Below are positions 96-64,000 of a stretch of 64,000 nt of DNA, one piece after another (within the stretch, counting starts at the first letter, position 1; every line of letters starts with the position of its first letter). The DNA lies in contig OZ024742.1 of NCBI GenBank assembly GCA_964016885.1, positions 87,730,001-87,794,000 of the forward strand. The letters run 5' to 3'. This DNA is from Eledone cirrhosa (Eukaryota). Position numbers and translations under genes: made by a program. The notes beneath the pieces are model-generated. The model did no database searches. It had not been told where the DNA came from and saw nothing but the letters and a program-made list of their open reading frames with translations.

Positions 96-690
96 CTACT
101 GAGGGTCTGTGTCTGTAAGTGTGTCTGTATGTATGTTTATGGTTTTATTGGTGTGTGTATTTTGGGGAGGAGGGGTAATTTGACAGCTTTCCTCCTCACC
201 CCCTGGGTGGTCAATGTTGGTGGTGGTCTTTCTATTGGTGTTTTTGTTGGTGGTTTTGCCGGTACTGGTGTTGGTTGTATTCCTCGTCCCGGCGTCGGCA
301 GCATTGGAGCCTTTCGACCCCTTGTCTCTTTCAGCAGTTGAGGGCAGAAGGCTTGCAAATGGGTTTTTTTCCCCACAAACAAAACACTGCGGCCTTTTGC
401 CTTTGGTCGTAAGGTGAATGACCGTCCCATTCTGAAGGCGGATGTAGTCCGAGATTGTCTTCACATTCTCGGGCCTGATCTGGAGAAGGATCTCCATGTC
501 AACCCCGGACCAGTCCTCTCTGGCCGTTCTGGTCACTTCTATAGGGACGCTATCCGGCCCCTCCACAATCACACATCCCAGAAGCCACCACATGTCAAGT
601 CCTGGTGGGATTCTGGGAATGCAGAGACGGGCCGTTCTTTTTCCCATGTGGGAGGGGTACATTATGACCTTGATGGTTTTGCAAATATAT
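96..690 (-). mobile_element. Fragment of a gag-like ORF1 (CCHC zinc knuckle) of a non-LTR retrotransposon, L1/Tx1-like
   Basis: ORFs 96-722 and 137-430 join across a frameshift to give CFVCGEK/THLQAFC (Cx2Cx4Hx4C), followed by a Thr/Asn/Pro-rich tail. Confidence 0.55.
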
Positions 691-1720
691 GAAATAGAAT
701 GGAGCGAAATTTCATTTCTCACTCTTAGTACGGCAGTTCCTTAAATGTAAGATGCATGTATGTATACGTAGACACATATATGTATACAGACGTACAGTAG
801 TATGTATATATATACATGCATACTAGTTTCAAGCTTATTAGCTATCGTCAGCATTGTATACCTTCCTGCCAGATGATTGAACGTCTCAACGTATATACTT
901 TCTTTATGCATATTAACGGCTGAGGAGCCTAATTTGCATGTCGAGTGAGTTTAGTCGGCCGGGCGCACCGAAAACGATAAATGGAATAGAATGACACGAA
1001 ATTCTCAGTCTTAGTACGGAAGCTACTTAAATGTAAGTATGCATGCATGTATACGTACACACATATATGTATACAGACGTACAGTAGTATGTATATATAT
1101 ACATACATGCACACATATATATATGCACGTATCGGTTTACCAAACATTTATTATAATGCTCGGTTTGTTTGTAAACAAACAAAGAGCCTCAATTACGCCG
1201 TACAGTGTTTAGGCAACCACGTCACCTTTTTGTTCAACACTGACACAGGAACGATGTACTAGTTTCAAGCTTACTAGCTATCGTCTGTATCGTATACCTT
1301 CCTGCCACATGGTTGAACGTCTCAAATTATATACTTTCCCTATGCATATTATCGGCTGAGCAGCCTAATTTGCATATCGAGTGAGTCTAGTCGGCCGGGC
1401 GCACCGAAAACGATATATGGAATAGAATGAAATAACATTTATTTTCTCACTCTTAGTACGGCAGTTATTTAAATGTAAGTACGCATGAATGTATACGTAC
1501 ACACATATATGTATACAGACGCACAGTAGTATGTATATATATACATGCACACATATATATATGCATGTATCGATTTACCTGAGGTTCATTATAATGCTCG
1601 GTTTCTTTGTAAACAAACAAACAGCCCGAATTATGCCGTACAGTATTTAGGCAGCCACGTCACCTTTTTGTTCAACACTGACACAGGAACGATGTACTAG
1701 TTTCAAGCTTATTAGCTATC
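690..1720 (-). repeat. Tandem array of ~437-bp non-coding units (about 2.5 copies), each with a hammerhead motif
   Basis: TACTAGTTTCAAGCTTA recurs at ~821, ~1257 and ~1695. Confidence 0.85.
821..857 (-). ncRNA. Minimal type I hammerhead ribozyme (copy 1; 3' arm of stem I lost)
   Basis: Minus strand reads ACAATG-CTGACGA-TAGC TAATAA GCTT-GAAA-CTAG-TA. The sister copy at 1251-1293 supplies stem I (ACGAT/ATCGT) but has a CAGACGA core. Confidence 0.6.
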
Positions 1721-2469
1721 TCATTTTCAATGTCTGCCCCACCGGCAACCGATCTGTATAATCAGTTCCTGATAGAATTCTTATAGAATTCTTATAATAA
1801 AGAGGAACTGACTATACGGAGCGGTTGCCGGTCAGCAGAAATTGAAAATTAGAATAGGTGCTCTGAAATAGCGATATATATATGTTCTGCCTGATAGACA
1901 ACTGCTCTGTATAATCAGTTCCTGATTATTACTAGAATTCTATAAGAATCAAACATTCATGATTTTCAGCAAACAGGTGGAGAATTTTGCTTTGATAAGT
2001 ACCAATCAGTACGAAACAGAGCTCTGTCAGCTTTATCTCCCCTGTTTGCTGAAAATGTTAAGTAAATGAGACTGTCACTGCTCTAAAACAATATCATAAT
2101 GTCTTCGAAATGCTTTTAATTAAGCATACAGTGTATTGCAAAATACACTATATATACATTCATATATACATCGCTATTTCAGAGCTCCAATTCTAATTTT
2201 CAATTTCTGCCTGGCCGGAAACCGGTCTGTATAATCACTTCCTGATTATTACTAGAATTCTATAAGAATCAAACATTAATGATTTTCAGCAAACAGGTGG
2301 AGTATTTGGCTTCAATAAGTACCAATCAGTACGAAACAGAGCTCTATCAGCTGTATCTCCCCTGTTTGGTGAACATTTAAAGTAAGTGAGACTGTCACTA
2401 CTCTAAAACAATAGCGTAAGGTCTTGGTAATGCTTTTAATTAAGCAATGCAAAATACACTATATATACA

Positions 2470-3245: not shown

Positions 3246-4674
3246 TAATTTTTAAATCCTTAGAAACTCTAATCTATTTTTGCCCTAAGAAAATATTTGA
3301 GAGGGAAACCCCGTACTATAACAAAACATTTGTAGAGAGCAGCTTTATAGAGAATATTAAGTATATACGAAATACCACCAGTCAAAAATACACGTAAAAG
3401 TAGGAAAATAATGTTAATTTGGCTTACACCCATTGATTCTCTAACAATGAAGATTAAGATAGAACTATTAAGATCGGTTAGTATTATTAGACACACCTTT
3501 TCCCCCTGAACATATGTATTTGGGCAATTTGAAAAGCAGGCGGGGAAAATCAGATACTCCTGCAAACCTTACATACATGCATAGATAACAAATAAAAAAA
3601 GGAAAATATGTAAGATCGGATGTTCATGTAGAAAGAAACATTATAATGCCAGGGTGATTGTTCGCGAAGTTAAATATCACACGTGTTACAAGCAATGATA
3701 GAGAGAGTTGAGAAGGATATGCTGGTACGACTGATGACCGTATGAAACAGCGGTACTTTTCACATGCCACGGATTACAAACCCTAAGAAATGAAGACAGA
3801 CACAGTACAAGCCAACCAAATATGAGAACTGAAGTATGAACCTTACAGATTTAAATAAAACATCCATGGTAAGTCATGCTCTTTTATTAAATTGAGAAAG
3901 AATAGTTTACGTTGCATATGCCTAAATGTTAAGGCAGCACAATATCCTTGCACTAATGACATATAGCGTGGGTGGCACATATATAAAAAAGCCTATACGT
4001 ACATAACATAAAATAATATAATAATGAAATAATATACAATAATAAAATAAAATAAGATAAAATACAATAACATAAAATGCTGGAAAAAGAGAATGCATAC
4101 GTGACAATGATGCAGAGGGGGGCCGGGCATTATCGGGGTGTGCTCTAAGCTGCACACAAGGCCGGGTGGGGTGTGTGTGTGTATGGGGGGGGGTAAATGT
4201 TTATATGATATACATGGGGCTGGTATTCTAAGGCACTGGGAAGTATCATATGCATGATGCATGTCTCGTGGCTTGTGTGTAGATGTGGGCCTTGCGTGTG
4301 TACACAAACAAGTTATATATATTGTGGTTATGTGTAACATCCATTTCATAAAAGTATATATGAAATGTGCATGGGGTTGATGTATAGTTGGAATATAAAG
4401 AGTATGTGTTTCATAACAGTATTTATGGAATGAACGTGGAGTGTATGCCTGATTGTAATGTGCCAGCGGCATGAGTTGTGTGCGTGTGTATATCAGTAGC
4501 ATGTAAACAAAATTAAAACTTGACATTAAAATTAGAATTAAAATAAAAATTAAGATTAACATCACCATTACAATTAGTTGCGACATTAACCTTGAGACCA
4601 GCAGCATGTCCATCATCCAAATAGCAAATTAACCACCACGAATCAAATATTGGAAATCAATAAAGATCTCTTCT

Positions 4675-10809: not shown

Positions 10810-10858
<49 letters not shown>

Positions 10859-13378: not shown

Positions 13379-13669
13379 AATATATAAACAACCAACTGGT
13401 TGTGGAACCAACCAACCAACCGGAAATTTATAAATTCCTAAATTTATAAATGTATTATAATAAACTGAAGTGAAAGAACATGTGCGTGTGTTTCTTATTG
13501 GCAACATGACCCTCCCAAACTATAACAATATCGGTTTCAATATACAAATTCAGAAACGAAATATATATATATATATATAGTAATAATAATAAATTTGAAT
13601 ACTAAAATCCAAAGAGGGCTCGATAAGGATAAATATATATCAAATATATAAGAACCGTAGAGCAAATAT

Positions 13670-15434
13670 TTATTAAAATAACAGATTAAAGTTTAAGCAA
13701 ATAATCGCTGCTTTCACCCTAAACGGGATCTTCTGAACTAACAAAGTCAATCTGTGAACGCAGAACTGGATATTTCAAAAAACGTTGCAACCAGAGGAAG
13801 ACAGGAAGACGATACTTTGGTTCGTGGAAACGTTCGCTGGCAAAGAACGGGAAAAAACGAATATAATACGTCATTAATAGGAGCGGTGAAAAACAATTAC
13901 GCGCAAAGTCAGAACCACGTTTATGGTATAAAAGAGGTCGTAGACTAATGTTCTCTTAGGTGGTGCATAGAGACGTTCTGTGGCAATGAACGAAAAAAAC
14001 GAAGATAATACGTCATATGTGGAGCGTGGAGAACAATAGCACGCAAAGACAAAACCACGTAAATGGCATAGCAGAAGTCGTAGACTATAATTCTAACTAG
14101 GAGACCAAATGAATCTCCGCTACAGAGTTAAGAACAAAGTAAATAAATACAATACAGAAGTAATAGAAATAAATAAAAACATACACGCAAACAAATACGT
14201 ACATACACAAGCATACGCAAAAACTTACCATAGGTATACAAAACCCCGCACATATAAATGTGTGTGTGTGTGTATGCGTCTATACAAATAAATAAATAAT
14301 TATATAAACTATATAAATAAATAAATACGCATATAACAATCGCACACACGTACCTACATATAAATACACGAATGTTCGGAGACGTAAGTCAACCAAAACA
14401 TAAAGTACACATATACACACACCCACCAAACTTACGAACCTGCATACTCGCACAGAGGCAAAACTCCCGTATACACATAGCCAAACCATATGTACCAGAA
14501 TAAATAAAATGATACGCCATAACAATCAAATATACGTACGAGAAGGTATACGTAACTTCACAAAACATACGGCTAAAATATACTTACCTATGCAAATATA
14601 TAAAGGTATAAACAAAACATATACTTAGCTCCCACATCAAGACGTAAAATATCCACGTATAGATCGTCCTATCCGTTAGGGTATAACGTGGGGCTGTAAT
14701 ACAGGAAAGTTTTATGCAATTTATGTTTACAAGCCGAAATTGCCTCAGATTTTTTATTTAAGATGTGGTCTGTGGCGTAGAGTATTTCCAGGGCCTCAGC
14801 GGCGCAGAGGTCACATGGTGTTTTATTTCCGTTATACGATCTAGCCCTAGCTAGGATCTCCCAGTGTAACTTAGATTGGGTGTGGTTGTCTTTTCGACTC
14901 CAGATATAAGCTGAAAGTGACGTGATATTCCTTCTTAGAGGGTAACGAAAAGAATTTGTTCTTAACTCTGTAGCGGAGATTCAATTGGTCTCCTAGTTCG
15001 AATTTTAGTTTACGACTTCTGCTATACCATTTACGTGGTTTTGTCTTTGCGTGCCATTGTTCTCCACGCTCCACATATGACGTATTATCTTCGTTTTTTC
15101 GTTCATTGCCAGAGAACGACTCTATGCACCCCCTAAGTGGACATTAGTCTACGACCTCTTTTATACCATAAACGTGGTTCTGTCTTTGCCCGTAATTGTT
15201 TTTCACCGCTCCTATTAATGACGTATTATATTTGTTTTTTCCCGTTCTTTGCCAGCGAACGTTTCCACGAACCAAAGTATCGTCTTCCTGTCTTCCTTCG
15301 GTAGCAACGTTTTTTGTTTACAAGCCGAAATATCCAGTTCTGCGTTTACAGATTGACTTTGTTAGTTTCAGAAGATCCCGTTAAGGGTGAAAGCAGCGAT
15401 TCTTTGCTTAAACTTTAATCTGTTATTTTAATAA

Positions 15435-31267: not shown

Positions 31268-31315
<48 letters not shown>

Positions 31316-31319
<4 letters not shown>

Positions 31320-33675
31320 TCCATTGACAAAAATAATACATATACAATATAGACACAAACACATATATATAGTTGATCAAAGTTCTTTCGTTGCACATCT
31401 GCATCATCGTCAGTGGTGCTATTGTTTCCAATCGTTGCATTGTATTTTCTACGCCATCTTTATTTGGTCTGTTTATATATTTATTTATTTGTTTATTTTA
31501 TTTTGTCTTCTTTGCCTGTGTGTATAGTGTTTTGTCTGATGTGTGTTCGTGATTGGGTGACTGTCTATTGGTTAATGTATTCTATCTTTACTAGTGTGTG
31601 TTTATGTGTTTGTTGTTATTGTGCTTGTGTATGTATTTATTTATTTATTTATCCATTTATTTATTTATACCTCTCTTAGATCAGTGTTGTTTGTTTGGGT
31701 GTTGTTATTATTCCATTCATTTTTTTTTGTTTAGCCTTGGCCTTCTAAGTTCGATTTCACTGGCCTCTCTGATTTGGCTATCTGCTGGGTCATTTCTATG
31801 TTTAGATATTATTCTAATATCCATGTTGTCTATGTTACCGTCGTGTTGTTGTCTGGCATGTTCGTATAGTACTGAACCGTTTTTTCGTCGTTTTAGTTCC
31901 CCCAGAGTTGGTCTATCCTTTCACCAATGCTACGAGCTGTCTAGCCTATGTATGTTGTTGTTATGTTTCTGCAAGTACCCTCTGTACATATTATGCTATA
32001 GACTACGTTTCTAGTTTTACAGTTTATCCGGTGGTTTACCTTACATATGATACATTTCCTATTAGTACTATGGGTTTTCTTAAAAGGGTAGGTTTTGCTG
32101 ATCAGGGATTTTATGGTGGTTCTTGGCTTTTCTACCACCTTAATCTTTAAGTGGGTATTTCGCAGGGCCTTTCTACACTGGTTAGCTAATTTCCCTCCAG
32201 GGGTAGCGTCCACAGACATGACACTCTGGTATCTCTGGTTGTCGTACCATGAGGTGGTTTTCCCTATATTATGTCTAGCCCTATCTAAGCTATTCTTTGA
32301 TTTGCTCCTGTATAATGGGCAAATTCCTTTCATGTCCAGTTCTATGAGGGTCTTATACTTCTCCATGGCTCCTTCATATACTCTGACTCTGTCTCTTTGG
32401 TTGTAGCCAGAAAACTGCATGCGGTTGATTAAGTGTTGGTTGTGTCTTTCCATTTTTGTTGGGTCGCACATGCGGGACACATTCTTCATCACTCGTACCA
32501 AATCTGTGATCAGAATATTAAACTTAGCACTACTGGACATTGTTGAGTTTTTGAGTATCAGGTATTTAGGGGCCATGGGTTTAGCATTGTGAGTGGAGAA
32601 TTTGGGCTCTCTCGTCTATAGTGTTAATCCATAGTTCCGTGTCTAATACAGGTAGTCTATTGTTAGGGTGTTTGGACGGGTAGTCGATAGTTACAGTTAT
32701 ACTCTGGTGTATGGAATTGGCTATCTGCTGGATGCTTTCCATTGTGCTACGTTCTAAATCGAACTTGTTAGTGCTCTTTAGTGGGAATGTTCTTATAACT
32801 ATATTGATATCGTCTACGTAACCATAGTACATGATGAGGTATATGGAGCTCTCGTTAAGGAGATGTTTGAGTCCCCTTTCCCACCATACCATAAAAAGGT
32901 TGGCAACATCACCTGCTATGCTGACGCCAATGGCTGCTCCCTCATTTTGGGTGTAGATCTTCTCGTTGAACTTGAATATGTGGCCCTTTAGTGTAGTTTT
33001 GATACTAGTCTCTATTGCATGTGCGTCCATTTTTCTTACCTGATCATTGTTTTGGGGGGTCCGTATAGCTTTGATCCACCCAATCCACCTTCCCCTGGGA
33101 GTCCTTTTAGCCATTGAGGTTATGGGTCTACTGGGACAGAAACGTCTATGGTCATGGCTGTCTAGGTAGTCAGTGTCGTAGGTAAGTCTAATTAGGAGGC
33201 CCAGTTCGTCTGTGTCGACGTCGCAGAACTTCACCTCACTCTCAATGATCACTCCACACATTTTTCCACAGCAAAATCAATGTTAATGGATGGGTACAGT
33301 GATACCACATCCATGCTGCCTGTTTTTGTTTCACTCACTGATTCTGCTGTGGAGGTCCTCTCTACTGTCACATACATCTGGGGACATCTTGATTATGGGG
33401 CGTATAGCCATTGAGAGGAAGTAGGAGATGCTGTAGTTGCTAGCTATATTTGCTCCGCATACGGGTCTTGTTGGTGGACCTGTTGTCGGGCCGTCGACCG
33501 TCTTGTGGTCTTTGCGGAGCCCATACAAGGATGGTATGCCATTGTTAGACGCCTGGAAATTATTGGCAGTGCGTCTGCTTGGCTTTAGGATGTCGGTCCA
33601 CATCATCATGTGAATGTCGAGGATGTTCTATCTCCCATCATGTGTTTGCTGTGCAATTTCGCTCGTGTTAGTTCG
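31316..33675 (-). mobile_element. 5'-truncated Neptune-type PLE, subfamily B
   Basis: ORFs 33331-33609, 32581-33261 (YGYVDD) and 31941-32576 (GIY-YIG). The 3' end abuts (TA)n at 31272-31316. Confidence 0.92.
31376..31417 (-). ncRNA. Hammerhead ribozyme (subfamily B pLTR)
   Basis: Minus strand reads ACCA-CTGACGA-TGATGC AGATGT GCAAC-GAAA-GAAC-TT-TGAT. Confidence 0.7.
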
Positions 33676-34793
33676 CCTCTAGGGGTTGTATTGATGAACA
33701 TGAGCAAATTTTGGAATAGAATAGAAAGAACTAGGAACAAGGCCAATAGAATAAACTCATGGTATGATAACAATAAATACCAGAGTGTAATGTTCATTAA
33801 TACAACCCCTAGAGGCGAACTAGCCTACAAATTTAGAAGGGCCCTAAATAAACATAAACTCAATATTAAGATAGTAGAAAGACCAGGTACCTCCGTAAAA
33901 ACACTTATTATCAAGACATACCCGTTCCAATGACCCTCATGCATAGACAAGAAATGTATAACCTGCAAAATAAGCCCCCATATTAACTGTAAAACTAGAA
34001 ATGTAGTGTATAGCATAAGATGTACTGAAGGACAATGTAGAAACAAAAATATAGTGTACATAGGTGAGACAGCTCGTAGTATAGGGGAACGGATAAATGA
34101 ACACTGGCGAGACCTTCAAGATAATAAAGAATCATCTGTACTCTACCAACATGCTAAGATAGAACACAAGGGTAAATTAGAGAACATAGAAATAAAAATA
34201 GAATCCACACACAGAAAAGATGCAATGTTTAGGTAAATTACAGAGGCAGTAAGCATAAAAGAATTACAACCAAAATTAAATAAAAAATCTGAGTGGAACA
34301 GCAACATCACAACTTACAATTAAGGACAAAATGAAAACACACACACACATAGAACAAACAACCAACCAACAACATGTAAATAAATAAACAAATAGATAAA
34401 TGAACACAAACACACACAGACACCCGGATGTGGCGCATGCGCAAACTGAGCACACAACACACACACAGAAACAAAATGGCGTAGGACAGAAGAAAAGAAA
34501 GGCACAGAAACAAAGTAAGGAATCCCCAGTCACTGATGAGGTCACAGAGTGTGTGACGAAAGGACTATGACTATATATAAACAACTATCTGGTTGTGGAA
34601 CCAACCAACCAACCAGAAACTTATAAGTTTGTAGATTTGTAAATTTATAAATTTATAAATATATAATAAATTGAAGTGAAACAACTGGTGCGTGTGTTTC
34701 TTATTGGCAACATGACCCTCCCAAAGTATAACAATATCGGTTTCAACACACGAATTCAGATAAAGAATCTTGCTAAACAAATTCAGAAACGAA

Positions 34794-34797
<4 letters not shown>
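33676..34797 (+). mobile_element. 5'-truncated Neptune-type PLE, subfamily A (short inverted 5' piece + GIY-YIG + pLTR)
   Basis: High similarity to 12500-13560, YIGETARS motif, and an end in (TA)n at 34797-34835. Confidence 0.92.
34529..34571 (+). ncRNA. Hammerhead ribozyme (subfamily A pLTR)
   Basis: GTCA-CTGATGA-G GTCACA GAGTG TGTGAC-GAAA-GGAC-TA-TGAC. Confidence 0.85.
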
Positions 34798-34839
<42 letters not shown>

Positions 34840-42329: not shown

Positions 42330-43022
42330 TATATTAGAAAGTGAGGTTTTTTTTACAAAATGAAAAATAACCGCGGTGTCCTACACGAGTGAAAGTCTAA
42401 AGAAAAAGGGATGAAATCGAAAATGCAACTGGAGTCTTATTTTTTTTTAAAATATATATATTTATTTGGTTCCTTTACCGGTTTCGCAGTTCTTCTGCTT
42501 TTCAAAAGGTGAGTTGAGATGGAGGGTCTGTGGTTTTTCTCACATCCGGTTGGTCTCTGAATGTTACTTGTTTTATATGGAAAAAGTGTCTCGAAATGCC
42601 AGGTTTTTCGAGAAGTAATTTGATTGGTTTGTCAATAATTATAATAAATTTCGCGCCAGTTCGCGTTACAATACTTCTTCAAATAAGAGGGGGGGGGGTC
42701 GCAGGTTGTTTTTTTCATATATGAGTGTTTGAATTTCTTTTTACTTGAAAAAAGGAGGCTCACGAAGGCTTTTTTTTGGTTGGTTATAAATGAAATTATG
42801 GCTGTCATGTGAACAAATTTTCATTAAATTTGTGTGCCCTTATTTGGGAATCCATTCTGTAGCCTTTTTAGAGCATTTTTTGATAAGTGAAAGATAATGG
42901 TCAAGAGAAAGGGATAGGAGAATTGTTCTGGTTCAGTGAATATGGTTAGTTCGCTGGGGTGTCATAATTCAGATTTTCTATTGAATAAAGAAAGTAAAGA
43001 TATGTGTGTTTATTTGTGTGCT

Positions 43023-43055
<33 letters not shown>

Positions 43056-43432
43056 GTTTGAATTTCTTTACTTTAAAAAATGGTGGCTCACGAAGGCTTT
43101 TTTTAATAAACGAGATTTGTTATAATCTTTTTAATAACTTGATTGGTTATAAATGAAATTTGGCTGTCACGTGAACAAGTTTTCATTACATGTTTGCGCC
43201 CTTATTTGGAAAACTATTCTGTAGTCTTTATAGCGAATGTTATGACAATGGAAAGATAGTGGCCAAGAGAAATGGCATTGAGAGAATTTTTTGATAAGTG
43301 AAAGATAATGGTCAAGAGAAAGGGATGGGAGAATTTTCTGGTTCAGTGAATATGGTTAGTTCGCTGGGGTGTCAGAATTCAGATTTTCTATTGAATAAAG
43401 GAAGTAAAGATATGTGTGTTTATTTGTGTGCT

Positions 43433-43465
<33 letters not shown>

Positions 43466-44032
43466 GTTTGAATTTCTTTACTTTAAAAAATGATGGCTCA
43501 CGAAGGCTTTTTTTTAATAAACGAGATTTGTTATAATCTTTTTAATAACTTGATTGGTTATAAATGAAATTTGGCTGTCACGTGAACAAGTTTTCATTAC
43601 ATTTTTGCGCCCTTATTTGGAAAACTCTTCTGTAGTCTTTATAGCGAATGTTATGACAATGGAAAGATAGTGGCCAAGAGAAATGGCATTGGGAGAATTG
43701 TTCTGGTTCAGTGAATATGGTTAGTTCGCTGGGGTGTCAGAGTTCAAATTTTCTATTGAAGTGAAGATATGTATGTTTATTTGTGTGCTTGTGTGTGTGT
43801 ATGTGTGTGCGTATGTGTGTGTGTGTATGTGTGTATTGGAAGATGATTTTATTAGTAGAAATGGGGGAGGGAGTTGTGTGTGTGTGTATATGGGTGTTAT
43901 GTGTGTGTGTGCGAGTTTGTTAAGATGGAGAGAATATATATTTTGTGTGTGTGTATATATATGTGTGTAATAAATATATATATTTTTGTTAAAAATAAGA
44001 CTCCAGTTGCATTTTCGATTTCATCTCTTTTT

Positions 44033-51000: not shown

Positions 51001-51588
51001 CTTTTAATCCTATTACTTTCCCTTATTTCTGTGATTTCTGTGCTAGTGTCATTACTTGTTTTATGTGCCTGTGTGTTTGTTAAGATTGTGATGGTGGTGA
51101 GAGGCATTGAATGTGTGTGTTTTGTTGTTGTTGATGTGTGCTGTTGTTGATGCGTGTTGTTGTTGTCTCCGTGTGTGTTATTATTGTTGTGTGTGTTGTT
51201 ATTGTTGTTTGTGTCTGCGTGTCTGTTGTTGTTGTTTATGAGCATGTTATTATTGTTGGTGTGTGTGTTGTTGTTAGTGTTGTTTGTGTCTGTGTGTCTG
51301 TTGTTGTTGGGATGTATGTTGTATATGTGTCTGCGTATGTTGTTTCTTTTGTTTTTGTTATTGTTTTTGAGGCTCCAACGTAATTTGGGAAATGATTTTT
51401 CTATTTCTGACAGACAACTAATCATATTTACCTTCTTGAATGTCGCAAATGTGTCGTTGATGTGGAAGCTGGCTAGCCTGCAGTGGGTCTCATGTCTGGT
51501 GAGTGCCTTTTGGTTGGCTGTCCGCGTAGAGAAGGTCGTGAGTGGGCTAGTTGGATATTCATCGAGGTTCTGTGGTTTTTCTCACATG
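48005..51588 (-). mobile_element. Longest subfamily A Neptune-type PLE copy (N-terminal region, RT, GIY-YIG, pLTR), disrupted
   Basis: ORFs 50706-51425, 50046-50705, 49500-50033 (MYSRYVDD) and 48710-49297 are collinear. The pLTR HHR at 48216-48258 has a palindromic AGATCT stem III but a C3G core. The 3' end is at (TA)n 47987-48005. Confidence 0.95.
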
Positions 51589-51750
51589 ATGTGAGAAAAA
51601 ACACAGACCCTCTATCTCAAGTCTACTTTTGAAAAGTAGAAGAACTGTGAAACCGGCAAAAGAACCAAATAAATATATATATATTTTTAAAAATAAGACT
51701 CCAATTGCATTTTCGATTTCATCTTTTTTCCTTATATATAAATATATATA
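51589..51750 (+). mobile_element. Family C pLTR with a degenerate HHR (51626-51662)
   Basis: Reverse complement of 42400-42545; CTT-TTGAAAA-GTAG AAGAA CTGT-GAAA-CCGG-CA-AAAG. Confidence 0.8.
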
Positions 51751-51796
51751 CATAATACAAGTTATATTTAGTTATCTAGAACTTAAATCCTGCTAA

Positions 51797-59882: not shown

Positions 59883-59886
<4 letters not shown>

Positions 59887-61620
59887 AAAGTTTGATTTAA
59901 GATTGTTGGGTTACAACGAGTAAATATTTTATAACTGATATAAAAGCACTCAACAATTTCTGGAGTAGGTTTACGATATTAAACAAATGGAAACTATATT
60001 TATAAAACCATATTTATTTCGTTATATATATTTCAGGGATATCATATTAGAAATATGGTATGCCTTCCTCAGACAAAATACAATACATAAGCTGTTTTAT
60101 AAATAATTTTTGACATACCTTATAAATAATGCAACTTCCATTTAAAAAGTTGATTTGGTAGTGAAACTGTTATGACAGTTATATAGAAAGAAAACGAAGA
60201 TGAGAAGAAGAAGATGAAGAGATGTATGTAAATAAAAAAGAAGAAGGTGAAGAGATGTATGTAAAGAAAAACAATAGAGCGAGATAGAGAGACAATGAGA
60301 TATGGGAGAGAGAAATACATTGAGGAAGTGAAAAAATATAGTAGGCAGCTTTTGGACATATGATCAACGTATATGTGAGGGAAGGGATACAGTTAAACTA
60401 GCCGACACATAAATCACGCCCAGTGTATAGGAGAAAAAAGAAAGAAAGGTGATATATTTAAAATATATTAAAAATATATTATGTCTCATCCATTTGAATT
60501 ATTAATTTTTATTAATTATGTATTATAATGTAAATATCAGTATTCATGAATGAGACACATATCCATAATGTGTGAAAAAATGACCACATGCTTAGTTTAA
60601 AAATTCTTAGGTCTATAAGCAAGATCTGAGATAAAACTTCAAACATAAGTATATATGCATTCTCATGAAAAAAGAAAAAGAGAAAAGCGGAGGTTATCTC
60701 AAATTCAAGTTGATAAATATAGACATACATGTGAACCTACGTGATATGCTCCACAAATTCTTATATTTCATGAAAAACTTCATTGCGTTACAAAAGATTC
60801 CACCCTACATATATTTACATACATATATACATATATATAGACATAAAATATATAAGATATACATTAACATTTAAAATAACATTCCAGCCTCACTTGCATG
60901 ATTGTCGATCAAGCATAGAGTAGACAACAGATATCAATATTAAAAATTAAAAACGCCAAGAATATCTTCGTCACTCCACAGAGTATCTAGGGACGCAAGA
61001 GAACATAGTATGCCACGCATATCGGTCACATAAAATCAGAATCAAAAGCAAACAAAACCAAAATTGTTCACCAAGCCTTATTTAGCAGAAATCATTCAAA
61101 ACTTATTCTACAAATGCTCTTATATTTATTATAGAAGTTTATCCAGCTTAAAAGTATTCAAAAGATTGGGAACAACGCCAATATTAGGGTAGTTTATTTA
61201 ATCTCATTAATTATATATTCATGCAGAAAGGTTTAAAAAAAAAAAAAAAAAAGAATTGAAGGAATCGAAAGATTTATCGCCAAGTTTCATAAATAGTTAA
61301 ACATCTTAAGTAAATATACTACATTTTATACTACATTTTAAATTTATATTTATATTTAAAAGTTGAGTTCAATCTATGTCTGCAGCAGCTGAATAAATTG
61401 GTTCGTAAATTAAGGGAATTTTTAGATTTTAGTAGAAAGAATATCTCCTCCGCGCAGAGGTCACATATCTGAGAAGAGGAATTAAAAGGAATCCCTTTTG
61501 AGACTATAATCCAAACCGTCGAATATCCAACTTTATCATGTTTAAGTTGCCAGAGTAACCCTGACAGCGATGTTGAAGATTTTTTATTTGGATCCGTGAA
61601 AGAATTTTTGTGATTACTAT
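59883..61620 (-). mobile_element. 5'-truncated Hydra-type PLE, family D (GIY-YIG C-terminus, long 3' UTR, pLTR)
   Basis: NHKNSFTD...CDLCAEEIFFLLKSKNSLNLRTNLFSCCRH is closely related to 44624-44900. The 3' end is at (TA)n 59854-59882, with an inverted copy of the terminus at 59786-59854. Confidence 0.85.
60015..60080 (-). ncRNA. Type I hammerhead ribozyme (family D, covarying copy)
   Basis: Minus strand reads TATTTTGT-CTGAGGA-AGG...CCT-GAAA-TATATA-TA-ACGAAATA. Confidence 0.9.
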
Positions 61621-62602
61621 AGGATCTCCCGGGGCGGACAACAACCACCCCACAAATCCGGGCCGCTAAGATAACAAAAAGTATAGAGCCCAAAAGGGAA
61701 GCACCAGTGCGGAAACCACCAGCAACCCAACAAATCTCCAACAAATCACGAATCCCCCAAACCACACATATAGGAGAAGACACCGACAAATCACGTGGTA
61801 CATCCCACCCTACTCAGCGGCCCTAAAGAAAAGCTTGGCCCGATTATTCTTTGGAGCACTTGACAAATGCTTCCCGAGGGACCACAGATACCACAGGATC
61901 TTCAACAGACACACTGTGAAGCTTTCGTATTCCACCACGAGAAATTTGGTCCAACACATAGCTAGCATCAACAGAAGTAGGCTTAAAAACCGCACACAAC
62001 CAGAAGATGGCAATACAAACACTCAGCAGAACCATGTGAAAGGAGGGAAGTGGGGAACCAGAGCCCACCCAAGAAACACAAACAGACCCAAGGACCCCCC
62101 ACCGAGCATGGGGGAAGACCAACATGTAACACATAATGAGAACCCTAATATAGGCACGCAGAGGCCGACCACCCTCTGCAACGGCAGAAACCCCGAATCA
62201 TGCCCCCTTGGTAATGAATGTCTCAAGAAAAACCTAGTGTACGGTTGTAGGGTTAAAACCCTCAACTCCGAACACCTCTACATAGGAGCCACATCAACGA
62301 GCTTTAAGGACCGCTGGTACAACCATCGCCATTCATTCAAGAAGGAGGCCAAAAGGAAAAGCACAGCTCTCTCCGACCTGATCTGGAAGCTTAAGCTGGA
62401 CAGGACCCCATACTCTCTGGCCTGGTACATAATCAGGAAAGTACGACCCGATAAAGGGGGATCTTGCATATGCAAACTATGCCTGAACGAGACCCTCGAG
62501 ATACTAAGAGGTGGAAGCGGCCTGATAAACCTCAGAACCGACTTCTTCGGGACATGCAGACACCTTAGAGCCGGGACCTTTCTCAAGATATATGGACAGT
62601 AG
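61621..62602 (+). pseudogene. 5'-truncated GC-richer Hydra-type PLE: linker + intact GIY-YIG endonuclease domain
   Basis: RRRHRQITWYIPPYS is in frame with ORF 61835-62602, which contains CPLGNECLKKNLVYGC...YIGATSTSFKDRWYNH...CKLCLNE...CRH. Confidence 0.9.
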
Positions 62603-63816
62603 CAACACAAGAAGATGTGAACTCCCCTCAAGCTATAGGGTCTTCTACAGAACATGAAAACACCTCTCGGCCAGACCTCCCTCAAGCTATATGGGCAATA
62701 ACAACACCCTAGGTTGTGAACTCCCCTCAAGCCACAGGGAACAACCCAGGCAGAGCAGAACCATGATAGCCTAGAGATAGAATCGGACACAGCCATAATA
62801 ATTTGGCCAACATCTATAACACAAACACTTTTAATTTACCAGATTTCTGACTTTCAAGTTCCAATCTTAAATCTTGATTTCTCTTTATTAATTTGTTTTT
62901 TTGTTTTCTGCCCTCTTCACTGTATCACCTTATATTTATTTTAAGTTGAGATAGATTATAACACAAACACATTGAATATCTCATCTTAACATCTTGTCTC
63001 ATACCAATCTATCCAACATATTCTGACCTTGAGATTGGTTATAGCACACACACACACACTTTATCCTACATTATTTCTCACCTCTCCATATACATTATCA
63101 TTACTTTTTCACCAATCTCTCATTTACTCTTTATTCTTTATTCTCTATTTATTTATTTATTTTCAAATTACACAAATTATATTAATTACTTTATTATATT
63201 ATTTATTTATTTTCTGTTTTCTTCATTTATTGCCATATATTTCTTCATATACATGAAATACCCCCCCCCCCCTCACACACACACCACCACTACTACGATG
63301 GTGGCGGGAGGGATGAAGAAAAAACACAAACTGGATACTTCTAAATTGTTAGCAGCAGCAAGATATAAGCTGACCACTACAACAACAACAGTACCAAAAT
63401 AATGGTGGAGGTCAAATGTACTGAACAATAGCAGGCAAAATCACTACAGGGAGCCTCACCCCAGAAAGAATTCTATAGACTTCTGACTGAGGAATGCTCT
63501 CAGAACTGAACAATGGGAAGTTTGACACTTTTTTAGTTATTTTGTTATTTTGTTCCTTTAACACCTTGTCCCTTCTACCATTTTATCAATTTTTAAGCTA
63601 ACTCCAACAATAACAACACTTACAATGAGGAATGTTCTAATAACTTACCAATGAGAGGAGAAGGGGACCTGTGACACTGAAATTCGTTTGTTTGAATTCA
63701 TATGACTCCAGTTCCCCAGTGAATTAACAACCCAACAAGGAACTGGGCATATCAGAGTATTGACAATATCATACACCTAAACAACATATGTACTTGTCTA
63801 TACCATACTAATTGAA

Positions 63817-63871
63817 ACTGCCTGAAGAGGTCACAGCCAAAGATGGCTGTCACTGAAATATATATAGCAGT
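63817..63871 (+). ncRNA. Type I hammerhead ribozyme (family E)
   Basis: Identical to 19547-19601. Confidence 0.9.
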
Positions 63872-64000
63872 AATAAACGAAGCTAAATTTTAATCATTTG
63901 ACTTTTATTTAACTTTATTTTACACTACTCCGGAGTAACCAAACCAACCTGCGCACTTCGTCGAGTGCTCCAGCCTGCATACTGAGGTGTTGGTATACAA

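What the first reader, a model, noticed from the sequence alone, without database searches (positions are those of the whole stretch)
31316..34797. Two different PLE subfamilies fused 5'-to-5' in a single (TA)n site
Seen: subfamily B (minus, 31316-33675) is joined with no spacer, TA tract or host DNA to subfamily A (26-bp inverted piece, then plus 33702-34797). Each 3' pLTR ends in (TA)n. The same heterologous head-to-head geometry appears at 51588/51589, 61620/61621 and possibly 1720. Inference: both ends of a break in palindromic (TA)n can be primed by separate RNPs/RNAs, even of different families, and the two cDNAs are then joined. This would explain the classic PLE inverted pLTR as a special case and give non-coding HHR RNAs a route to hitch-hike.
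Basis: partly seen in the sequence, partly recalled or inferred. Interest (0 to 1): 0.78.

Follow-up and report, generated by a model that had tools for sequence, protein, structure and literature searches.

The report
Old and young Penelope copies abutting
Two related Penelope-like jumping genes do meet head-to-head here, but the left one carries about three times more mutations and lacks its normal end, so it was likely already in place when the right one inserted; the many same-family pairs in this genome nearly always have one long and one short end, which suggests that both ends of the cut DNA prime copying.

Summary
The junction is real. B (minus, 31317-33669) abuts a 33-bp (not 26-bp) inverted A piece and A (plus, 33702-34793), with (TA)n at both outer ends.

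One insertion from two RNAs is not supported here. B has 52/2004 private substitutions against 6/623 for A (p=0.012), a neutral-decay pattern and private deletions. Its 3' end lies 130-200 bp short of both normal B ends, and no near-identical source copy was found. A likely inserted later, with the 33 bp as a stunted second arm.

61620 is a true cross-family junction with matching ages and normal ends, the best case for the idea.

Cross-family head-to-head junctions (7-10 of 20) are not clearly above a chance-landing null (0.31).

The firmer result is in same-family pairs: 60 of 64 have one long and one short 3' end, none two long, and the arms are sister copies. This favours coupled two-end priming. 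The one-sided tail is published, and the scan noted it before in another genome.

The parts
31271..31316 (.). (TA)n tract at B's 3' side
31317..33669 (-). Subfamily B Penelope-like copy: 5'-truncated, decayed (3 private stop codons, 21- and 23-bp deletions), 3' end about 130 and 200 bp short of the two normal B ends
31386..31413 (-). Hammerhead-like core (CTGACGA-stem-GAAA) in B's pLTR; motif match only
   Evidence: no Rfam hit at gathering score
33669..33701 (-). 33-bp inverted piece of A (copy of 33790-33822); likely a stunted second arm of the A insertion
33702..34793 (+). Subfamily A Penelope-like copy: 5'-truncated, young, ending at the family's long 3' end (with the 56-bp tail, about 34738-34793)
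34533..34561 (+). Hammerhead-like core (CTGATGA-stem II-GAAA) in A's pLTR; motif match only
34794..34836 (.). (TA)n tract at A's 3' end
59884..61622 (-). Family D copy, normal long end plus TA; left half of the second cross-family junction
61622..64000 (+). Family C copy; runs just past the window to its normal long end plus TA; same apparent age as D
   Evidence: L369
10851..13579 (.). Same-family A head-to-head pair (275-bp short-end arm plus 2.4-kb arm): the common form
13580..15417 (.). Same-family F head-to-head pair, one long and one short end
51561..51754 (.). Palindrome of short element N51 centred at 51588, left arm cut to about 28 bp; not an A junction
681..1800 (.). Tandem non-coding element N1 (minus; its relatives carry a hammerhead-like motif) joined at 1720 to a plus-strand piece of N2

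Best explanation
An old, decayed B copy and a young A copy of two Penelope-like subfamilies are joined 5'-to-5' through a 33-bp inverted piece of A, likely because A inserted later beside B and the DNA between them was lost during that insertion. Shown: the geometry, the age gap, B's abnormal 3' end, the one-long-one-short rule and the sister status of arms in same-family pairs. Inferred: in this genome these elements normally integrate by two-end priming. The element cuts both strands of a (TA)n tract; one end primes reverse transcription at the long 3' start site, the other at the short site 56-100 nt upstream, on RNA from the same source; the two truncated cDNAs are then joined by 1-7 nt of microhomology or a short templated patch. 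Here A's right end primed normally at the long site. The left end had likely been trimmed past its TA into the old B copy, so it primed inside the A RNA, as in L1 twin priming, and made only 33 nt. B is then flank, not cargo.
For: Age: private substitutions B 52/2004 vs A 6/623, p=0.012; with the smaller first set 47/1814 vs 10/1092, p=0.0013. Nearest relative 4.4% vs 1.6%. Only 1 of 21 same-family pairs shows such a gap.

B's changes look neutral: codon positions 15/14/18, 13 synonymous, 34 non-synonymous, 3 stops, plus 21- and 23-bp deletions. No near-identical B source among the 39 other copies scored in each (best 95% and 92%). B's 3' end is abnormal, 1 of 52.

Short inverted self-pieces also sit between A or B 5' ends and unrelated flanks: L062 38 bp, L095 about 22 bp, L180 about 30 bp with 7 nt shared with the flank, L153 230 bp, L066 about 190 bp, L173 about 235 bp. 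Loss of a neighbour's end is common: L119, L171, L180, L379 (both arms), L384.

Same-family rule: 60 of 64 pairs long+short, 0 long+long; arms are sisters in 8 of 8 pairs on the tree. In vitro, a PLE protein cuts and extends both strands and starts at two sites that bound the tail (PMC11167929).
Against: Only 1 nt of microhomology at the B/inverted-piece joint, which is weak for internal priming. The clock is rough across families: in L379 the B copy (nearest relative 2.7%) appears to overwrite an A arm (1.9%), the reverse of the clock order. Searches scored only 40 candidates each, so a source copy could be missed. No empty or half-filled allele was seen. Sister arms could also come from gene conversion, and one RNA cannot be told from two RNAs of one locus.
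Confidence: 0.55

Rival explanations
1. Two independent insertions (old B, then a complete two-armed A pair in the neighbouring TA tract), followed by a later deletion that removed the tract and all but 33 bp of A's second arm.
For: Same age evidence. Same-family head-to-head is the default for A (83 of 107 A arms of 250 bp or more). Remnants of an arm next to a foreign element occur (L384, L379).
Against: Needs an extra event that spares only the centre of the palindrome. Similar short inverted pieces recur beside young copies with unrelated flanks.
Confidence: 0.25
2. One reading: one break in (TA)n, left end primed on a B RNA and right end on an A RNA, cDNAs joined through a 33-nt templated patch. 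The B RNA would have come from an already dead copy and been primed at an abnormal site by 2-nt AT pairing.
For: Flush geometry with TA at both ends. B's end coincides with an AT in the family sequence. Other cross-family junctions have matching ages and normal long ends: 61620 (7/718 vs 10/979, p=1), L176, L066. Two L1 cDNA intermediates can recombine with each other (PMC13526784 abstract; 10.1101/2024.08.27.596794 passages).
Against: No source copy for B found. Age gap and abnormal end. Cross-family head-to-head junctions are 7-10 of 20 against a null of 0.31, p=0.43 to 0.06. The only other junction of this form between two coding families (L173, A+F) is also age-discordant (3/873 vs 43/2291, p=0.0007).
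Confidence: 0.12
3. B inserted later into the TA at the end of A's second arm and deleted most of that arm, as appears to have happened in L384.
For: The same B | inverted A remnant | A layout in L384, where A is the older partner (7.4% vs 2.4%).
Against: Here A is the young partner; none of the 34 B arms sampled has a nearest relative closer than 1.7%; B lacks a normal 3' end.
Confidence: 0.05
4. Misassembly joined two unrelated copies.
For: The junction was not confirmed by the listed contig pieces.
Against: The 33-bp inverted piece and 1-nt overlap resemble the 64 same-family joints (35 overlap by 1-7 nt, 22 have 1-60 nt inserts). Raw reads of another sample show opposite-strand joints within both families, though these could be library chimeras. 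The right flank is single-copy apart from one short repeat.
Confidence: 0.03

Closest known systems
Canonical endonuclease-bearing Penelope-like element insertion unit (PMC8557442 passages; PMC3846280 passages)
   Same: RT plus C-terminal GIY-YIG ORF, partial tandems forming pLTRs, adjoining inverted 5'-truncated copy, tail often at only one end, (TA)n bias hiding target duplications.
   Different: Tails here are 56-100 bp rather than 30-40. The one-long-one-short rule and sister status of arms are counted here. PMC3846280 explains the inversion by self-priming on an antisense template and reports no cross-mobilisation between the two PLE types of its host; cross-family 5'-5' joints are not described in the passages read.
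Anolis Poseidon (PAc) in vitro reaction (PMC11167929, parts 1-2 of 4 read)
   Same: Both strands cut and extended, AT-rich target, two RT start sites bounding the tail, predicted dimer.
   Different: The parts read report no difference in start site between strands and do not propose that one insertion uses each site once; the genomic pairs here suggest it does.
L1 twin priming and recombination of synchronous L1 intermediates (10.1101/2024.08.27.596794 and 10.1101/2024.12.14.628481 passages; PMC13526784 abstract)
   Same: Two DNA ends prime on one RNA and the cDNAs join by microhomology; target deletion and short inversions; two intermediates can recombine.
   Different: L1's second primer anneals at a chance internal site. 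Here the second end normally uses a fixed site 56-100 nt from the first, so both arms include the 3' end.
Double insertion of transposable elements at one target (PMC5932611 passages)
   Same: Consecutive insertions into a preferred target build composite units.
   Different: Those tandems are mostly head-to-tail and keep the target duplication at the joint; here the target is lost.

Membership tests
EN+ Penelope-like element (A, B) | Single ORF with RT and C-terminal GIY-YIG | tested here: met
   Natural A copy L162: 755 open codons with weak Pfam RVT_1 (E 2.7e-4) and GIY-YIG (E 3.8e-4) hits, both below curated cut-offs; B is 65-67% identical
EN+ Penelope-like element (A, B) | pLTR formed by partial tandem copies | tested here: met
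   pLTR-ORF-pLTR tandems in L142, L157, L161, L162, L126
EN+ Penelope-like element (A, B) | Adjoining inverted 5'-truncated copy and one-sided tail | tested here: met
   117 of 166 arms of 250 bp or more have a same-family inverted neighbour; 60 of 64 pairs long+short
EN+ Penelope-like element (A, B) | Hammerhead ribozyme in the pLTR | tested here: inconclusive
   Core motif present and A's stem II folds; no Rfam hit at gathering score; cleavage untested
Neptune/Nematis-type clade of PLE | CX2-5CxxC linker before GIY-YIG | tested here: met
   A shows C-x4-C-x2-C before the GIY-YIG core; feature as described in PMC8557442
Neptune/Nematis-type clade of PLE | RT phylogeny with reference clades | not tested
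   No reference PLE sequences were fetched
   52/2004 vs 6/623, p=0.012
   A yes; B 130-200 bp short, 1 of 52
   Reads uninformative; no second haplotype of the flank among 40 scored candidates
Single two-RNA insertion, 61620 junction | Same age and normal ends on both halves | tested here: met
   7/718 vs 10/979 private, both long ends plus TA, flush joint; compatible with the model, not proof

The most novel reading that the evidence does not exclude
Penelope-like elements integrate by programmed two-end priming: one dimeric complex uses its long start site on one DNA end and its short start site on the other, which explains inverted pLTRs and the one-sided tail. Occasionally two complexes of different families each take one end and both use their long site, giving long+long cross-family fusions such as 61620 (D/C), L176 and L066, and letting non-coding hammerhead RNAs ride along.
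Probability: 0.25. Interest if true: 0.75.

Novelty: new variant of a known kind. Interest (0 to 1): 0.45.

Why it matters
How Penelope-like elements make inverted repeats and one-sided tails is named as an open task in PMC8557442. The counts here argue against simple fold-back or self-priming, which would not give each arm a different fixed end. They give a direct prediction for the existing in vitro system: one long-start and one short-start cDNA per target. The A/B composite itself is probably ordinary pile-up in TA tracts. If age-matched cross-family fusions such as 61620 prove to be single events, two unrelated retroelement RNAs can cooperate at one break in a germ line.

Tried and rejected
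Reads: the first laying was not run. The second (one sample as contigs in three runs, one RAD run) listed no piece across the junction and says nothing on an empty allele. No second haplotype of the right flank was found.

Rfam at gathering score: 0 hits. My first hammerhead scan missed the A and B cores because of a strict stem filter. Folding z-scores were not significant. PDB search gave only a weak GIY-YIG match, E 0.33.

Simple fold-back as the source of same-family arms was rejected: it predicts the same 3' end on both arms, seen in 2 of 64 rows (one of these, the window pair at 10851, is a long end with an internal deletion). It also cannot give inverted pieces that start upstream of the main arm's 5' end (L066, L173).

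Candidates dropped on inspection: L180 A+G (A is joined head-to-tail to short element K); L171 (head-to-tail to Y); L167/L074 (A nested in H with a 7-bp target duplication); L050 (29-bp patch only); window Z/N51; one spurious A-B row (L085); junctions with the SINE-like repeat. The automatic 5'-end chaining was confounded by TA tracts and not used. An early guess that D at 61620 was much older than C was wrong. The unbiased sample is 200 kb, not the 600 kb planned. No complex or structure prediction was run.

Full report
Observation. The window lies at G000:C3:87730001-87794000 in a 3.0-Gb genome; the host was not identified. B runs on the minus strand from 33669 to 31317 and abuts (TA)n. A runs on the plus strand from 33702 to 34793 and abuts (TA)n. 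Between them lie 33 bp that copy A's own 33790-33822 in reverse (97%). Alignment with 26 other B copies puts B's boundary at 33669, with one base shared. Only the window itself holds this joint among 40 scored candidates. A has an RT plus GIY-YIG ORF (weak Pfam hits), partial-tandem pLTRs and hammerhead-like cores; B is 65-67% identical in protein.

What the families normally do. From 180 loci plus the window I kept 200 distinct arms with a visible 5' joint. All loci were chosen by similarity to window copies, so they lean young. Of the 166 arms of at least 250 bp, 117 have a same-family inverted neighbour, 17 join TA directly, 31 join something else, and 1 (this finding) joins the other subfamily head-to-head. 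Each family has two fixed 3' ends: A 4011 and 4067, B 4189 and 4245-4258. Among 64 same-family pairs with both ends visible, 60 have one long and one short end, 2 were called short+short, 2 have an odd end, and none is long+long (one spurious A-B row dropped). Four rows are one duplicated insertion; on 59 independent callable pairs, 57 long+short gives p=6e-15 against 0.5. One query selected for long ends on the focal arm, which does not explain the short partner. A cruder count over seven families found 137 long+short, 6 long+long and 2 short+short among 236 pairs, 91 having an uncallable end. Three of the six long+long are tandem arms that end short when followed through. Arms run from 80 bp to 6.1 kb, beyond one unit. 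Joints overlap by 1-7 nt in 35 of 64, are flush in 3 and carry 1-60 nt in 22.

The arms are sisters. For 22 pairs overlapping by at least 700 bp, the partner is the nearest copy for at least one arm in 18 and for both in 12. On a tree of 42 A arms, all 8 pairs with both arms present are sister tips (support 0.70-0.995). So a pair comes from one source element. One RNA cannot be told from two RNAs of that locus, and gene conversion is not excluded.

Age of the two halves here. Private substitutions are 52/2004 for B and 6/623 for A (p=0.012); 1 of 21 same-family pairs shows a gap at p<0.05. Nearest relatives differ by 4.4% and 1.6%. B's private changes fall evenly on codon positions (15/14/18; 13 synonymous, 34 non-synonymous, 3 stops), unlike shared B variants (8 of 12 synonymous). 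B has private 21- and 23-bp deletions. No source-like copy appeared (best 95% and 92% among 39 others each). B's 3' end is the only one of 52 TA-abutting B ends below position 4150. B therefore most likely aged in place, and A came later.

The 33-bp piece. Similar inverted self-pieces lie between A or B 5' ends and unrelated flanks in L062, L095, L153, L180, L066 and L173. In L180 the piece shares 7 nt with the flank; here only 1 nt. In L066 and L173 the piece begins upstream of the main arm's 5' end, so it is a true second arm rather than a fold-back. I infer that a left end trimmed beyond its TA primes inside the RNA, as in L1 twin priming (10.1101/2024.08.27.596794, passages). A later deletion of a full second arm fits equally in geometry.

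Cross-family joints. Over the loci held (about 1.5 Mb non-redundant) I found 7 direct head-to-head joints (61620, 1720, L100, L176, L180 K/G, L348, and L115 read by eye) and 3 through an inverted A piece (this finding, L066, L173). About 10 are head-to-tail, where a 5' end meets a neighbour that lost or is split at its 3' part (L119, L171, L180 K/A, L379 twice, L384, L167, L313, L375, L079). A landing null, the orientation of annotated elements 10-3000 bp beyond a TA tract, gives 0.31 head-to-head (0.23-0.41 by distance). Seven of 20 gives p=0.43 and 10 of 20 gives p=0.06: no clear excess.

61620 joins D and C flush, both with normal long ends and TA, and with equal ages (7/718 vs 10/979). L176 and L066 are also age-matched and long+long, a combination absent from the 64 same-family pairs. 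A's long end was selected by the query in those two, and the numbers are small. L079 holds a 70-bp A piece at the centre of a Y pair, which suggests A sequence was at hand when Y inserted. Against: L173 is age-discordant (p=0.0007). 51588 is the centre of an N51 palindrome, with A ending at 51453.

Literature. PMC8557442 (passages) describes the inverted 5'-truncated copy, the tail often at one end and the TA bias, and names the mechanism as an open task. PMC3846280 (passages) proposes antisense self-priming. PMC11167929 (parts 1-2 of 4) shows cutting and extension of both strands and two start sites. 10.64898/2026.07.22.740005 (part 1 of 5) derives animal retrozymes from PLEs. PMC13526784 (abstract) and 10.1101/2024.12.14.628481 (passages) show L1 intermediates recombining. 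PMC5932611 and 10.1101/179705 were read as passages. In the listings and the texts read, I saw no description of cross-family PLE 5'-5' joints or of a counted long/short rule. The library lacks most subscription papers, including older Penelope work that I recall but could not read; no supplements were opened. An earlier scan note (e1-9975795) reports the one-sided end rule in another genome.

Verdict. The composite is real and most likely sequential: about 0.8 that B came first, about 0.12 for a two-RNA event. The transferable result is the evidence for coupled two-end priming, which sharpens a known architecture into a testable mechanism. The 61620 junction is the better locus for testing the two-RNA idea.

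Noticed in passing
window 59884-64000 (continues in L369): D/C cross-family head-to-head junction with equal ages, normal long ends and a flush joint; best candidate for a two-RNA event.
   Followed up: yes
L079:2783-2975: Pair of short element Y with a 70-bp piece of A's pLTR at its centre; possible template capture across families.
   Followed up: partly
L379:1297-5326: An A pair whose outer ends are both replaced, by B on one side and by N1 on the other, about 3.1 kb and 0.37 kb of A missing.
   Followed up: partly
L161, L162, L166, L171: Single arms of 5-6 kb that run through more than one element unit, as expected from a multimeric or circular RNA template.
   Followed up: partly
L180:2150-5155; L242-L270: Very young family G (nearest copy 0.5%, open ORF of at least 620 aa, long AT-rich 3' region, no hammerhead motif seen in the part scanned); few inverted arms in the loci held.
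   Followed up: no
window 681-1720, 1885-2460; L214, L223, L229, L232: Non-coding tandem elements N1 and N2 with hammerhead-like motifs, ending in TA like the coding families; retrozyme-like.
   Followed up: partly
L074:819-1902: Single-arm A inserted outside a TA tract, inside element H, with a 7-bp target duplication.
   Followed up: yes
window 51454-51560: 107-bp piece of another repeat (87-91% to L108, L129) between A's 5' end and the N51 palindrome; family unknown.
   Followed up: no
L070, L071, L077, L177: The same A insertion (same 5' break) at four places, with a variable 8-10-bp repeat at the joint; duplicated region or alternative haplotypes.
   Followed up: no
window 42870-43699: 411-bp tandem duplication at 97% identity.
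   Followed up: no
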